Made by a program: the position numbers and the translations under genes | The notes under the pieces: model-generated | What the model saw: the letters and a program-made list of their open reading frames with translations, nothing else | What the model was told of the DNA's origin: nothing | The model's database searches: none | Assembly (NCBI GenBank): GCA_963716765.1 | Contig: CAVQUO010000018.1 | Location: 59,951-123,950, forward strand | Origin: an uncultured Bacteroidota bacterium | GTDB taxonomy: Bacteria; Bacteroidota; Bacteroidia; Bacteroidales; GCA-2748055 | DNA: 64,000 nucleotides | Direction: 5' to 3' | In this document: positions 49,277 through 63,631 of the stretch, one piece after another | How positions within the stretch are numbered: position 1 is the stretch's first letter | Layout of the letters: every line of letters starts with the position of its first letter

Positions 49277-49938
49277 CTAACGCTTGTGGTAACCACCTTT
49301 GGGAAATCCTCCCTTAACACCCCTGGATGCCGGATCTGATTCGGACGGATCAGGAGAAATCCATTGTCTGAGATCATCGATGGAAATCTTATTGAGCGGC
49401 GGGGCATCTGTTAGCAGAAATCCACCTGTGAGATATGCGAAGGGGTAGTCGTCTTTAAAAGCGTAAAGATGATCTTCCAGATGGTCGGTAAGTTCGCTGC
49501 TATCCATCCGCGACATCTTCAGGTAAATTGTTTCCTCTTTCATGGTTGGTATCAGGGCATAGGTGACAAGAAAGTCCTCCCCCTGGCTTAGCCATTTTGT
49601 ATTGCTGTTTGGAGTGAATTCCAACTGAATCACAATAGAATTTCTCTCATCTCCATCCATGTTCAGGTATTGGGATATTTCAGGAATCGAAAAAGTAAGC
49701 CATCCATCTTCATCTGTAGATGTGGAGGCCGAATGGTTCCATAACTCACTCTTCCCCGGTTCGGATGAGATGAGTTTGACCGCGAAATTAAAGTTTTCAC
49801 TGATGAGTGCTTCTCCGGAGGCGCTCTTTGAGTAAACCCTGGAAATTTAATTCAATTGCTGCCTGACCGAAGCCTGTCAGCAGAAAAGCAAATAGTCCAA
49901 AAAAAACCAGGGCAATTTTCTTTCTTATGAGGTTTCAT
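49277..49938 (-). CDS. Hypothetical exported protein (frameshifted)
   Basis: Signal-peptide-like start MKPHKKRKLPWFFFGLFAF at 49938 joined to the 127-aa ORF. Confidence 0.5.
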
Positions 49939-50069
49939 TACAATATGGATTTTAAACAAATTTAAGAATATCCTGATATTGATTTATACGGAAGATTCAT
50001 TTCTAAGGTTATTAACAAATTGTTAATAACCATTGTGAATGATTTGTGAATAGAGAACAGAGAGATCTG

Positions 50070-50101
50070 CTTGACTTGAATGACCTGAAGGTCTATTTTT
50101 G
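50070..50101 (+). promoter_or_regulatory. Bacteroidota housekeeping promoter for the putative ncRNA
   Basis: CTTG (50070-50073), 20-nt spacer, TATTTTTG (50094-50101) matching TTTG-N19-21-TAnnTTTG. Confidence 0.65.
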
Positions 50102-50105
50102 GTTA

Positions 50106-50628
50106 TACCGAGTAAGAGATAATAGGCCGCTCGAAGTTTCGCCCGGTGTAGTGAGCCAGTCCGATAGGATGCTGGGGAGCGAACCGGCCGGCAAAGGGAT
50201 TCCCTCCACTGCCGGAGATTCATCCAGAGCCAGGCACAAGACATGAAGCTACGCTTCAGGGTCAGTTTAGCCGGAAAGATTTCTACTAGGAAGTTCTTTA
50301 AAAGGTTGATCCTAAAGGCTGAAGAGCCAAAAAGAATCCCCTGGGGTTCCACTAAGCTTTTTCACTCTGGCACGGGTAGGTCGTACGAACTGACCGTTGC
50401 AGGGGCCTTAAGGAGCCGGTCCCGGAAATCCAGCTTTTTCGGCTGGGTGAAAGGACGGTTGCAAGTCGTTGCTCTACGGAACAAAGGCCGAGAACCAGGG
50501 TTTACGGGAAAGTAATCCTCAGGATTATTTCAAGCGGACCGGCCATAATAACTGTAGCTCGGCACTGATTGATGTCTACGGGTATCAATCAGTGAAAAGG
50601 GAGTAAACCAAAAGTTTACTCCCTTTTT
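50106..50628 (+). ncRNA. Putative large structured non-coding RNA (~520 nt), family not recognised
   Basis: Own promoter and terminator, nested 5'/3' long-range pairings, many local hairpins, no credible protein ORF. Confidence 0.65.
50595..50628. terminator. Bidirectional intrinsic terminator
   Basis: AAAAGGGAGTAAAC-caaaa-GTTTACTCCCTTTTT. Confidence 0.9.
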
Positions 50629-50664
50629 GTATTTTGCCCGGCATGGGCAATAACTCTGTGCAGC

Positions 50665-52023
50665 CTAGGATTTATATTTAGGACTCAGGAAGGGATTGAT
50701 TACAAGCCCAAGAACGATACCTGCAATGCAGAAGGCAAATGCATAGAGCACCAGGTCTTCCGAGATGCCAATAAAAATGGCCGGGACAATGACCCCCACC
50801 ATGCAAAACAGGATGGAAAGAATCACGCTTAATCGGTTGATCCTTGGGTAGATCCATATTACCAGAACGAGGAGTCCCAGCGACATGGTGAGGGATACAA
50901 AGAAGAAGGTAGCATCCACGATATCGCGCAAGATAAGGGACAGAGCGATGCCAAGAATCATCAAAACCAGCATGCTCCACCTCATGGTTTTTCTAAGATT
51001 TTCCTGCTTGGTAAATCCGGCTTGCTCAAGGAAGTCCTGGGTGACTGACGCGGAAGCAGTGAACATATAGGTATCGGCCGATGAGGATACCGAAGAATAG
51101 ATAATGACCACCGACAAGCCGGCCAGTCCCACGGGTAGCAATTTGCTGAAACCAACGATCAGGGATGTGTCGGGGGCGATATCGGGAATATCGGCACGAA
51201 TGACCAATCCGATGAGGAGGAGAATAAAACCCACGATGATGTAAAAAACAGACGACATGATAATGCTTCGCCTGAAATTCTTTTTATCCTTAATGGCATA
51301 TACCCTTTGCCACAATTCGGGCGAGGCCATTGGGATGAAGAATCCGGCCAGGAAGAAACTGATAATCTGCATGGTGGGTATGTTGAACAGGTCCATGAAA
51401 ACCACTTCAGGTTTGGTGGCTGTTGTGGAGAGCAGGTACATCATCAATACAAATAAGAGGAAGATCCCGAAGGTTTGAACAATATCTGTTTTAACCACGG
51501 CATCGAAACCGCCTGCGACCAGGTAGGCGAGGATAATGACCCCGACAATGATCACCGAAAGGTCATAGCTAATGGGTGTATACTCCGAAACCAGTTTAGC
51601 GCCAGCCGTGAAATTTAATACCACCCAACCGAACATAATAATAATGGTGATGACCGTGGCAAGGTAGCCGGCGTATTTTCCTTTAAAGAAGAAAAAGAAG
51701 TCGGGCATGGTATAAAATTTTTCCTTGTCGGCAATCTTCTTCACCTTCAGCCCGAAGAAATAAAAGACAAACAGTCCGAATACTGATCCCACGAAGTACC
51801 AAAGGGCTCCCATTCCGTACATGTATACCAGTGCGGTGTAGGTGAGCAGGATGGCAGCTCCAATCCGGCTTGAAAAAATGGTGGATGTAGCCTGCAGGGC
51901 AGTGAGTTTCCTTCCGGAAATCAGGAAGTCCTCCTTTTCCTGCTTTCTTCCGGTAAGTGCTCCAACTACAAGGATCACAAGAAAGTAGGCAGCAATAATC
52001 AGATAATCGGTCAGGATTAGCAT
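50665..52023 (-). CDS. Sodium:solute symporter (SSS) family protein
   Basis: About 13 TM segments, DFLISGR, GGFDAVVKTDIVQ, WQRVYA, SSADT. Confidence 0.9.
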   Translation of the reverse strand: MLILTDYLIIAAYFLVILVVGALTGRKQEKEDFLISGRKLTALQATSTIFSSRIGAAILLTYTALVYMYGMGALWYFVGSVFGLFVFYFFGLKVKKIADKEKFYTMPDFFFFFKGKYAGYLATVITIIIMFGWVVLNFTAGAKLVSEYTPISYDLSVIIVGVIILAYLVAGGFDAVVKTDIVQTFGIFLLFVLMMYLLSTTATKPEVVFMDLFNIPTMQIISFFLAGFFIPMASPELWQRVYAIKDKKNFRRSIIMSSVFYIIVGFILLLIGLVIRADIPDIAPDTSLIVGFSKLLPVGLAGLSVVIIYSSVSSSADTYMFTASASVTQDFLEQAGFTKQENLRKTMRWSMLVLMILGIALSLILRDIVDATFFFVSLTMSLGLLVLVIWIYPRINRLSVILSILFCMVGVIVPAIFIGISEDLVLYAFAFCIAGIVLGLVINPFLSPKYKS

Positions 52024-52389: not shown

Positions 52390-55300
52390 ATGAAAAAAGT
52401 ATTATTCTTTCTGCTATTCATGGCGTTCGGTACCCTGACCATGTTCGGTCAGGCCCGCTTAGTATCCGGTGTTGTATCGAGCTCTGAAGACGGTACCCCT
52501 CTGCCGGGTGTTACGGTCGCTGTGAAGGGAACCACCGTTGGTACGATCACGGATGCCACCGGAAATTACCAGATAAATGTCCCCCAAGGGGCTGATATTC
52601 TCATCTTTAGTTTTGTCGGGCTTGCTACCCAGGAAGTTAAAATAGGCGACCTGAGCGAAGTGGCAATTACCATGGAATCAGACCTGCTGGAGATCGATGA
52701 GGTTGTGGTCACGGCCATGGGGATCCGAAAGGAGAAAAAGGCACTTGGTTATTCGGTCCAGGAGATCGATGAGAGTCAGATCTCGGGCGCCAAAAACATG
52801 GATGTTTCCAAATCCCTGCAGGGAAAGATTGCCGGGGTGAATGTGAAACAATCCAGTGGTATGCCGGGAGCAACTTCCCATGTAACCATTCGCGGCAATG
52901 TATCCCTGACTGGTGACAACCAGCCTCTGTATGTGGTGGATGGGATGCCCATTGCCTCTGACAAAGCCTTTACGGAAAATGTGGGAGAAGGAACCAACCC
53001 ATCATCCAGGATTGTGGATCTGAATCCAGAGGATATTGAATCCATTACAGTCCTCAAAGGAGCCACAGCCGGTGCAATTTATGGTTTACGAGCTTCCAAT
53101 GGTGTCATCCTGATCACCACAAAAAGTGGTTCTGCGGCCCGGACTGCAGGCAAGAAAACACTGGTTACCCTGAACAGTAGTTTCTCTTCAGACAGGATCA
53201 GCCGCCTTCCGGAACTTACAATCCACCTATGCACAGGGAAATGGAGGAGAGTTGAACCTGTGGTCGTCCGGTTCCTGGGGTCCGCGTATTGATACCCTGC
53301 AAAATTATCAGAGCCAGGAGGACAACCTCTACTTTGATAATCCTTACGAGACCTCCGACGGAGGTCCGCCACCGCAGGTTCCTGCTGTATATGACAACCA
53401 GGAGGACTTTTTCCAGAAGGGTTACACTTTTACCAACTCGGTTGATATTTCATCTGCAACTGATAATGCCCGTTATAGTCTTGGTATCGGCCGGACCGAC
53501 CAGAAGGGTATTATTGAGACCACGGGTATGGTGAGGAACAATGCAAAGTTTAACGGCTTCTTCGACCTGAGTGACAAATGGACCGCCTCGGTTTCAGCCA
53601 ATGTTTCCAATGTGGATATTGATAAAATCCCCGGAGGAAGTAACCTGGCAAATCCCTTGTTTACGGTTTACTTTGCGCCCCGGTCATACGATCTCACCAA
53701 TAAACCCTTTGAACGGGAAGAGAATCCCTATCAGCAGTATCACTATCGCTTTGCCATGGATAATCCCTACTGGGCATTAAAAAACAATTCCTATAATGAA
53801 TTCACCAACAGGTTCTTTGGGAATACGGCGATCGGCTACCAGCCTTTTGAATGGATGCGTATTAATTACAGGATCGGACTGGACAGGTTTGTAACCACCG
53901 GTCATGAGGTAATCTCCCTGGGTTCTGGCGGACAGGGCAGGGGATATCCCGAGTTTGGGGATGAACCGGCAGGTGGACAGATCGATGACTATACCTACCA
54001 GCGCCAGGAAATTAACTCAAACCTTTCCATAAGTTTCACCAAAGATTTTGGGGATTTCGGACTGGATGTGATTCTGGGTAATGAGTTCTATGATATTACC
54101 ACCCAAACCCAGCAAATGACAGGCACCAATATTACCATCGGAGGCTTTGACCATATTTCAAATACAGGTGCCCAGAATGTATTCCAGGAGCTAACCCGCC
54201 AGCGTGTGGTTGGTTTTTATGGAAGTGCAACAGCTGATTATGCTTCCATGATCTTCCTGACCGTAACCGGACGAAATGATGTTGTATCCAATATGCCTTC
54301 GGGGAACAGATCCTATTTTTACCCCTCTGTTTCAGCCGGCTTTGTATTTACTGAGATTGGTGGTCTGAAGGACCAGAAGGTACTTCCTTATGGAAAAATC
54401 CGGGCCTCCTATTCCCAGATGGGACAGGCAGGCGCGCTTTATGCTACCAGAACCCTGTATTCTGCAAGGGTTGACAATGAAGCACTTGGGAATGGATTCC
54501 TGGACAATGATTTTAACTTCCCCTACCAGGGATATCCTGCATTTACCCTGCAGCAGACCCTGCTTTCAGATCAGTTGAGGCCACAGAACATTACCACCTA
54601 TGAGGTGGGCTTAGACCTTGCGTTTTTACGAGAACAGGGTGGGAATTGATTATTCCTACTATTATGTAAATGCAACGGACCAGATTTTTAACGTTCCGCT
54701 GGCAGCCTCTTCAGGTTTCCGGGGAGAGTACGCAATGCCGGGGAGCTGGAATCCAAGGGTCATGAGATAGTGCTTTCAATTGTTCCGGTAAGAACCAGTG
54801 GAGGATTTGAGTGGGAAATTCTGACCAATTTTTCGAAGAACAAGAATATGGTTCTATCACTGGCACCTGGAGTGGAACGGGTTCAGACCGGCTGGCAGAA
54901 TTTCACCAGTGTGGGAGCCTATGCCTATGCAGGACATCCATATCCCGGTGATCTTTGGAAGCGGATATGTGAGGGATGCTGATGACCGGATTGTTGTGGA
55001 TTCAAGGGCCGACAGTTAATGGTGAACCTAATCCTTTCTACGGCATGCCACTGCAGGGTGGTGATGAAAAAATTCTGGGGAAGGTTAATCCGGATTGGGA
55101 TGCCAGTTTTACCAATTACTTCCGTTATAAAGGATTTACCTTTATGGCACAGCTTTATTACTCCAAAGGAGGATTTATCTCCAGCGGATTAACCGGATTA
55201 CTCAGGAACTATGGCGCTGCCAAGGAATGTGAGGACAGGGAAACTCCCGTTGTGTTTCCTAATACTGCCAAAGGCTACCTGGATTCAAATACCGGGGAAC

Positions 55301-63542: not shown

Positions 63543-63631
<89 letters not shown>

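What the first reader, a model, noticed from the sequence alone, without database searches (positions are those of the whole stretch)
50070..50628. Candidate large (~520 nt) structured non-coding RNA with its own promoter and terminator
Seen: a ~720-bp gap with no credible protein, in which a Bacteroidota promoter (CTTG-N20-TATTTTTG) predicts a start near 50106. From there the 5' end can pair in nested order with the 3' end: CCGAG 50108-50112/CTCGG 50558-50562; CCGCTCGAA 50127-50135/TTCAAGCGG 50529-50537; GCCCGGT 50141-50147/ACCAGGGT 50494-50501; GTAG..AGC 50148-50156/GCTCTAC 50471-50477. The interior holds hairpins (CCGGCA..AGGGATTCCCT..TGCCGG; TGAAGC-tac-GCTTCA; GGTC..GACC; CCAGC-tttttcg-GCTGG; AATCC-tca-GGATT). 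An 11-bp hairpin (50563-50594) and a strong terminator follow. It lacks RNase P, tmRNA, SRP and intron signatures and is too long for 6S RNA. Inference: a free-standing, multi-branched RNA comparable in size to the OLE/ROOL/Bacteroidales-2 classes, possibly a new class.
Basis: partly seen in the sequence, partly recalled or inferred. Interest (0 to 1): 0.85.

Follow-up and report, generated by a model that had tools for sequence, protein, structure and literature searches.

The report
New abundant structured RNA of Bacteroidia
The gap holds a real, heavily expressed, roughly 450-530-base folded RNA gene with its own promoter and terminator, and it belongs to a widespread RNA family of Bacteroidia bacteria that no RNA database lists and whose job is still unknown.

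Summary
Window 50106-50632 (+) is a free-standing non-coding RNA gene.

- **Structure:** across 53 homologues, 91.1% of pair cells form pairs, against 31-48% in slid controls. 112 of 166 pairs show double changes.
- **Coding:** no reading frame is conserved.
- **Known families:** no Rfam 15 family matches. RNase P, tmRNA and SRP RNA lie elsewhere.
- **Expression:** contigs of four sediment or estuary metatranscriptomes lie on 50117-50581 at very high summed depth.
- **Distribution:** 30 confirmed of 151 sampled Bacteroidales genomes and 12 of 147 genomes of other Bacteroidia orders (9 inspected). None was found in 114 genomes of other families, presumably other classes. Some genomes, including this one, carry two paralogues.
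- **Shared features:** a covarying end-to-end stem, an invariant irregular helix beside it, a 3' hairpin, a terminator, and a palindrome at fixed spacing upstream of the promoter.
- **Variable part:** the interior spans about 200-550 nt.

Function is unknown. My best guess is an abundant ribonucleoprotein scaffold.

The parts
50007..50031 (.). Perfect 25-bp palindrome GGTTATTAACAA-A-TTGTTAATAACC, a probable binding site of a dimeric transcription factor
   Evidence: Read. The core TTATTAAC(N2-5)GTTAATAA is conserved in an anchored display of 37 loci. Its start lay 92-94 nt before the 5' motif in the 10 loci where I measured the distance (display). In the 65%-complete genome, exact TATTAAC-N-GTTAATA palindromes occur only before the two RNA paralogues. 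Binding is inferred.
50033..50051 (+). Two direct TTGTGAAT repeats 11 bp apart between the palindrome and the promoter
   Evidence: TGT..TGT boxes are conserved at this place in 37 loci. Their role is inferred.
50070..50101 (+). Bacteroidota-type promoter: TTG at 50071-73 and TATTTTTG at 50094-50101
   Evidence: I recall the -33/-7 consensus; it comes from no call. The predicted start is about 50106-50108.
50106..50632 (+). Predicted primary transcript, about 527 nt
   Evidence: Set by promoter and terminator positions. The strand follows from G-U pairs at 9.9% against A-C at 2.5% of pair cells.
50108..50128 (+). 5' strand of the terminal stem: P1 (50108-13), an invariant irregular helix (GAGAUAA), and P2 (GGCC 50125-28)
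   Evidence: This is the best-conserved part of the family.
50129..50540 (+). Multi-branched interior: about 20 helices here, variable in size and sequence between families
   Evidence: Helices and their covariation are. The 5'-motif-to-P1 body spans 214-564 nt in 47 sequences.
50541..50562 (+). 3' strand of the terminal stem: P2 (GGCC), AUAAUAACUGUAG, then P1 (CUCGG)
50563..50594 (+). Conserved 12-bp hairpin with a CUAYGG-type loop
   Evidence: 9 of its 11 pairs show double changes across 39 diverse sequences.
50595..50632 (+). Intrinsic terminator: a 14-bp stem plus a U run
   Evidence: 7 of 9 pairs show double changes.
50117..50581 (+). Stretch on which metatranscriptome contigs lie
   Evidence: 4 of 4 RNA runs from 4 studies. 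Summed word depth per bin reaches about 3.6e5 in X1.

Best explanation
This is the gene of a stable, very abundant, trans-acting structured RNA. It belongs to a previously unlisted family found across the class Bacteroidia.

Shown: the unit is a self-contained module made of an upstream palindrome, a Bacteroidota promoter, the RNA and an intrinsic terminator. Selection acts on RNA base pairing. The RNA is present at high depth in RNA libraries. Carriers hold one or two copies.

Inferred: a dimeric DNA-binding protein at the palindrome controls transcription. The RNA works as the scaffold of a ribonucleoprotein. Its partner recognises the only universally conserved parts: the end-to-end stem with its invariant irregular helix (5' ..AAGUGAGNGAUAAAAGG / CCAUAAUAACNGUANCUU.. 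3') and perhaps the 3' hairpin. The GNRA-hairpin-rich interior is a lineage-specific structural body.

A weaker inference is that the primary transcript is trimmed near the base of P1 to a shorter mature form of about 50117 to 50557-50581.
For: Real structured RNA:
- 166 pairs; 91.1% of cells paired against 31.5-47.7% when slid.
- 112 pairs have double changes.
- Covariation score is 0.290 against 0.055-0.094, and 0 of 500 shuffles reach it.
- The 3' module across 39 diverse sequences is 91.6% paired against 39-47%.

Non-coding: the window's ORFs are intact in only 2-12 of 53 homologues.

Expressed: contigs of 4 of 4 metatranscriptome runs lie on 50117-50581. 20 RNA runs from 20 studies hold 17-26% of the sampled words.

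Free-standing:
- The downstream gene is convergent (SSF, PF00474), and FloA (PF12127) lies upstream.
- Neighbours differ between families.

Widespread:
- 43 of 48 genomes of the genus.
- 33 of 151 order genomes, of which 30 are confirmed, 1 is spurious and 2 were not inspected.
- 12 of 147 genomes of other orders, with 9 of 9 inspected loci genuine.

Conservation is confined to the termini and the promoter module.

Two paralogues occur in G000, G226, and G021, G057, G101 and G140.
Against: - No protein partner is known.
- No gene is consistently linked to the RNA.
- The scaffold idea rests only on the pattern of conservation.
- Binding of a factor to the palindrome is not shown.
- The data behind the shorter mature form are assembled contigs, which cannot show ends properly. 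Adapter letters abut 50117 in one contig and 50557 in two contigs only.
- A ribozyme, a protein sponge or an RNA-only assembly would fit the same facts.
Confidence: 0.4

Rival explanations
1. It is a protein-sequestering (sponge) RNA. A response-regulator-type factor at the upstream palindrome switches it on, and it titrates an RNA-binding protein through many hairpin modules. This would work like CsrB/RsmZ with their upstream activating palindrome.
For: There is a dedicated upstream palindrome. Carriers hold one or two paralogues. The RNA is very abundant. Its interior varies about two-fold in size and is built of many small hairpins. The resemblance to Gac/Rsm is recalled, not tested.
Against: No recurrent loop motif stands out in 41 diverse interiors. 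The best 5- and 6-mers (CCGGA, CGAAAG) are about 3-fold enriched and occur 1-2 times per RNA. The strongest conservation sits in the terminal stem, not in repeated loops.
Confidence: 0.15
2. It is a ribozyme or the RNA subunit of a catalytic ribonucleoprotein.
For: It is large, has a multi-branched covarying fold, is enriched in C-GNRA-G hairpins (2.9 against 1.16 per RNA), and is abundant at housekeeping level.
Against: The interior, where a catalytic core would sit, is poorly conserved between families. It shrinks to about 200 nt of A-rich hairpins in the smallest members. No ribozyme family matched.
Confidence: 0.1
3. It is an RNA-only homo-oligomeric assembly, like ROOL, GOLLD or OLE.
For: It is of similar size, ornate, abundant and of unknown function. 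The abstract of PMC12286853 (search listing) says such RNAs form homo-oligomers.
Against: No sequence or structure match to those families. It has no phage context: 8 pattern hits in viral contigs were all chance. Nothing here tests oligomerisation.
Confidence: 0.1
4. It is a functional replacement of 6S RNA that binds RNA polymerase, in lineages that lack the Bacteroidales-1 type 6S.
For: No 6S model hits the genus: RF00013 0 of 5, RF01693 0 of 5, RF01685 0 of 5, though the last rang in no control genome. RF01693 found nothing in 5 further carriers. No genome has both an above-threshold RF01693 hit and a confirmed copy, among 151 searched with both models. A passage of bioRxiv 10.1101/2024.04.05.588293 equates Bacteroidales-1 with the 6S RNA of B. 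thetaiotaomicron.
Against: G101 and G130 hold confirmed copies and also rod-like 6S look-alikes. Those score 56.8 and 40.7 bits against RF01693, below its cut-off of 60. The consensus fold is multi-branched, not a rod with a central bubble. Sizes of about 290-640 nt far exceed 6S. Its sequences are unrelated to Bacteroidales-1. 119 of 151 genomes lack RF01693 in any case.
Confidence: 0.07
5. It is not an RNA gene but a conserved DNA element or the leader of a neighbouring gene.
For: The upstream palindrome is a DNA-level feature.
Against: Covariation keeps RNA pairs, with G-U favoured 4 to 1 over A-C. A terminator follows, and the next gene is convergent. RNA-library contigs lie on it.
Confidence: 0.01

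Closest known systems
OLE RNA (Rfam RF01071; accession recalled)
   Same: A large, ornate, highly expressed bacterial RNA of unknown chemistry that is thought to act in a ribonucleoprotein. The abstract of PMC3413148 (search listing) reports exceptionally high expression and a protein partner.
   Different: No match in cmscan. The phylum differs. There is no constant neighbouring protein gene. This family has a variable interior with conserved termini.
ROOL and GOLLD RNAs
   Same: Size class, many GNRA-capped helices, abundance, and orphan function.
   Different: No Rfam match. This RNA is chromosomal and syntenic within a genus, not phage-borne. Oligomerisation is untested.
6S RNA / Bacteroidales-1 (RF01693)
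   Same: An abundant free-standing RNA whose 5' and 3' ends pair, with 1-2 copies per genome. Its distribution is largely complementary among 151 genomes.
   Different: The sequence is unrelated and the fold is multi-branched. It is 2-3 times longer. It co-occurs with 6S look-alikes in G101 and G130.
CsrB/RsmZ-type sponge RNAs with an upstream activating palindrome (recalled)
   Same: A dedicated palindrome upstream of the promoter, paralogues, variable numbers of hairpins, and high abundance.
   Different: There is no repeated loop motif. The conserved part is the terminal stem.
Y RNAs (Ro/Rsr partners)
   Same: A conserved stem formed by the two ends, with a variable interior.
   Different: No TROVE/Ro gene in 5 of 5 carriers searched. 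This RNA is much larger.

Membership tests
Any Rfam 15 family (4227 models) | Covariance-model match at or near the gathering score | tested here: not met
   Whole window at gathering score: only a tRNA at 63543. Region at E<=10: best is cow-rumen-3 at 23.4 bits against 86.7, on the two 3' hairpins only. Divergent homologues and the paralogue: nothing relevant.
6S RNA / Bacteroidales-1 | Match to RF00013, RF01685 or RF01693 | tested here: not met
   0 of 5 genomes for each model. RF01685 rang in no control genome, so that result says nothing.
6S RNA / Bacteroidales-1 | Single rod-like hairpin with a large central bubble | tested here: not met
   The consensus has 27 helices in a multi-branched fold. 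The smallest members also fold branched.
6S RNA / Bacteroidales-1 | Binds RNA polymerase and templates product RNAs | not testable with these tools
   Needs biochemistry or small-RNA sequencing.
RNase P RNA | Match to RF00010; one per genome | tested here: not met
   RF00010 hits elsewhere in 5 of 5 genomes at 182-198 bits, in G000 on contig C22.
tmRNA | tRNA-like ends and a tag reading frame | tested here: not met
   ARAGORN finds nothing in 49900-50800. RF00023 is found elsewhere above cut-off in 3 of 5 genomes of the genus.
SRP RNA | Match to RF00169 | tested here: not met
   Found elsewhere in 5 of 5 genomes, 4 above cut-off.
Y RNA | A Ro/TROVE protein encoded in the genome | tested here: not met
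   PF05731 in 0 of 5 carriers; the controls rang.
ROOL / GOLLD | Family model match; frequent phage or prophage context | tested here: not met
   No match. The 8 pattern hits in IMG/VR all lack the 5' motif and the palindrome.
Riboswitch or cis leader | Lies upstream of, and on the same strand as, a regulated gene | tested here: not met
   A strong terminator is followed by a convergent gene. Neighbours vary.
Sponge RNA of the CsrB/Rsm kind | Many copies of one short loop motif | tested here: inconclusive
   No motif above about 3-fold enrichment or about 1.6 copies per RNA. A degenerate motif could be missed.
Protein-coding gene | Reading frame kept among homologues | tested here: not met
   Frames are intact in 2, 2, 5 and 12 of 53 homologues for the four ORFs tested. 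No Pfam hit for two of them.

The most novel reading that the evidence does not exclude
This is a new, class-wide RNA of Bacteroidia with housekeeping-grade abundance. It is the RNA subunit of a so-far unknown ribonucleoprotein or ribozyme. A dedicated regulator bound to a conserved palindrome drives its transcription. Its mature form is released from a precursor by cleavage at the covarying P1 and 3'-hairpin module.
Probability: 0.3. Interest if true: 0.92.

Novelty: categorically new. Interest (0 to 1): 0.85.

Why it matters
Large, conserved, highly expressed bacterial RNAs of unknown function are rare. OLE, ROOL, GOLLD and raiA are the main examples, and each has opened new RNA biology.

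This one is spread over a whole bacterial class that includes major gut and environmental lineages. It reaches very high depth in sediment and estuary metatranscriptomes. It comes with a clear regulatory handle, the invariant upstream palindrome.

Carriers include several one-contig, probably complete genomes (G130 and G547). Genetics, end mapping, pull-downs and cryo-EM would be practical if cultured strains exist. It also shows that even the newest Rfam release misses a widespread RNA in a well-sequenced phylum.

Tried and rejected
A second-iteration model, an exact 3' pattern and the 3'-module model R3 overturned that.
- **Gene links:** FloA is upstream in most copies of two genera only. 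SRAP (PF02586) and a PF00144 hydrolase flank the second paralogue type in a few lineages only. I rejected both as universal partners.
- **Phage origin** is rejected.
- **Y RNA** is rejected.
- **tRNA-like element** is rejected.
- **Sponge motif search** gave nothing clear.
- **6S replacement** is weakened by G101 and G130.
- **orf127** between FloA and the RNA has no Pfam hit and does not look like a DNA-binding protein. I did not pursue it.
- **Parts without cover:** no contig lay on 49900-50116 or 50644-50800. Depth fell to 333 or less in 50582-50612 and to 16 or less in 50613-50643. These are contigs, no DNA run was laid, and holes prove nothing. I use this only as a weak hint of a discrete and perhaps trimmed RNA.
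- **Literature:** five searches gave no description of this RNA or its palindrome. For PMC8040213 I saw only the search listing. Its candidate lists are in supplements, which are closed, and they may hold this RNA.

Full report
**What is in the window.**
- Between a flotillin-like gene (FloA, PF12127, 48473-49270 +; a small unknown gene follows on the minus strand) and a convergent sodium:solute symporter (PF00474, 50665-52023 -) lies a gap of about 1 kb.
- It carries CTTG-N20-TATTTTTG (50070-50101), the sequence from about 50106, a 12-bp hairpin (50563-50594) and a 14-bp terminator hairpin with a U run (50595-50632).
- The plus strand folds better than shuffles (z = -3.96); the minus strand gives z = -3.0.

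**It is not a listed RNA.**
- cmscan of the whole window at gathering scores finds only a tRNA at 63543.
- At E<=10 the region gives nothing meaningful.
- RNase P RNA (5 of 5 genomes), tmRNA (3 of 5 above cut-off) and SRP RNA (5 of 5) lie elsewhere in this genome or its genus.
- ARAGORN finds nothing.

**It is a conserved, structured, non-coding RNA.**
- BLASTN found one copy in 22 of 24 genomes of the genus at 71-90% identity, with FloA and the symporter as constant neighbours.
- RNAalifold on 19 copies gave 152 pairs, 48 with compensatory changes.
- After widening the set I aligned 53 distinct sequences of 49-100% identity.
  - 166 pairs in 27 helices; 91.1% of cells paired against 31.5-47.7% with the 3' partner slid.
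  - 112 pairs have changes on both sides.
  - Covariation score is 0.290 against 0.055-0.094, and 0 of 500 shuffles reach any measure.
  - The structure was derived from the same alignment, which favours it somewhat.
- G-U pairs (9.9% of cells) outnumber A-C (2.5%), so the plus strand is the RNA.
- The window's ORFs inside the region are intact in only 2-12 of 53 homologues.

- The outer helix 50108-13/50557-62 is right and covaries in at least five Watson-Crick versions.
- The other three long-range helices are not supported and are replaced by local pairings.
- The local hairpins, the 3' hairpin and the terminator are supported.

**Expression.**
- 20 RNA runs of 20 studies (sediment, estuary, salt marsh, aquatic) hold 17-26% of the sampled words of a 901-base stretch.
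- Contigs of 4 of 4 runs laid (222, 89, 14 and 123 contigs) lie on 50117-50581. Summed word depth per bin is from about 12,800 to 3.6e5 in X1.
- These depths add up relatives and are not expression levels.
- Adapter letters abut 50117 (one contig, X4) and 50557 (one contig each in X2 and X4). Several contigs end at 50557 or 50567.
- Together with much lower depth over the 3' hairpin's second half and the terminator, this hints that the abundant form is shorter than the primary transcript and is cut near the base of P1. Contigs cannot prove ends, so I rate this as weak.

**The family is far wider than the genus.**
- Model R1 (central domain) found it in 56 of 91 genomes of the family: genus g1 43 of 48, g161 9 of 13, and three more genera.
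- A scan of one genome per species for a 3' pattern gave 51 loci. All are uncultured Bacteroidales or Bacteroidota MAGs except one chance hit.
- A second-iteration model found a true homologue in another family.
- An exact 3' pattern hit 14 of 401 order genomes in nine families, with 1 hit of the reversed control. It hit 0 of 388 genomes of other orders.
- Model R3 of the 3' module (39 sequences) is more sensitive. It hit 33 of 151 order genomes, one genome per family for nearly all.
  - I confirmed 30 by the 5' motif.
  - One is spurious (G054).
  - Two were not inspected.
- In other orders of the class, R3 hit 12 of 147 genomes. All nine loci inspected carry both end motifs and a terminator.
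- In the phylum draw the only hit beside G000 was a same-class genome. 0 of 114 genomes in families not seen in the class draw had one.
- Rfam finds nothing in any of these loci.

**Anatomy of the family.**
- Shared by all members:
  - a palindrome TTATTAAC(N2-5)GTTAATAA, starting 92-94 nt before the RNA's 5' motif in the 10 loci where I measured it, followed by TGT boxes;
  - a TTG / TAnnTTTG promoter;
  - the 5' sequence ACCRRGUGAGNGAUAAAAGG;
  - the 3' sequence CCAUAAUAACNGUANCYYGGC;
  - a hairpin with a CUAYGG-type loop, GUGRAAUGGG, and a terminator.
- P1 covaries. The helix next to it is irregular and nearly invariant, which suggests specific recognition. Whether it is a loop-E-like motif is my guess only.
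- The interior ranges from about 200 to 550 nt. It is poorly conserved between families and is enriched in C-GNRA-G hairpins (2.9 against 1.16 per RNA).
- In G000 exact palindromes of this kind occur only before the two RNA genes.

**Paralogues.**
- G000 has a second, shorter copy of about 420 nt on contig C22 (389885-390305) with the same palindrome, promoter and ends.
- G226 also has two copies. G021, G057, G101 and G140 have two by R3.
- The second type often sits between an SRAP gene and a PF00144 hydrolase. In G000 both flanking genes look decayed.
- This linkage is absent in most families.

**What it does.**
- No neighbour, motif or known family gives the function.
- My best guess (about 0.4) is an abundant ribonucleoprotein scaffold whose partner reads the conserved terminal stem, under control of a factor bound to the palindrome.
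- Rivals are a sponge RNA (0.15), a ribozyme (0.1), an RNA-only assembly (0.1) and a 6S substitute (0.07).
- The 6S idea drew on several facts.
  - No 6S model hits the genus.
  - Bacteroidales-1 is the 6S RNA of B. thetaiotaomicron, per a passage of bioRxiv 10.1101/2024.04.05.588293.
  - The two distributions are largely complementary.
- Two carriers, G101 and G130, also hold rod-like 6S look-alikes. The fold here is branched, so I rate the 6S idea low.

**Novelty.**
- It is not in Rfam 15.
- It was not found in five literature searches.
- Supplements of candidate-RNA surveys were closed.
- That it is a real RNA class I hold at about 0.97. That it is undescribed I hold at about 0.75.

Noticed in passing
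G000 contig C22:389885-390305 (locus L155:3883-4305), outside the window: A second, shorter paralogue of the RNA with the same palindrome, promoter and end motifs. The flanking SRAP-like and PF00144-like genes appear broken into short frames.
   Followed up: partly
window 50117 and 50557: Illumina adapter letters directly abut these two positions in metatranscriptome contigs of different studies. Both lie at the inner base of helix P1, as if both strands were cut there.
   Followed up: partly
loci L014, L019, L021/L024, L023 (genomes G001, G006, G015, G024): Four draft genomes of the genus have contig breaks inside the RNA gene. Possible causes are strain variation or very uneven coverage at this locus.
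   Followed up: no
window 49277-49660 (-): A 127-aa protein with no Pfam hit sits between FloA and the RNA in two genera (28-80% identity), divergent from the RNA gene. Its function is unknown.
   Followed up: partly
window 52390-54649 (+): A TonB-dependent receptor N-terminus (CarboxypepD_reg plus Plug, 300 aa) is followed by an overlapping 465-aa ORF. This may be one receptor gene split by a frameshift or an ORF-calling artefact.
   Followed up: no
order-level genomes: The Bacteroidales-1 (6S) model hits only 32 of 151 sampled Bacteroidales genomes, 24 of them above cut-off. Most families of the order have no recognisable 6S RNA with current models.
   Followed up: no
genomes G018, G021: tmRNA genes sit exactly at contig ends (positions 1-397 and 1-398) in two genomes of the genus.
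   Followed up: no
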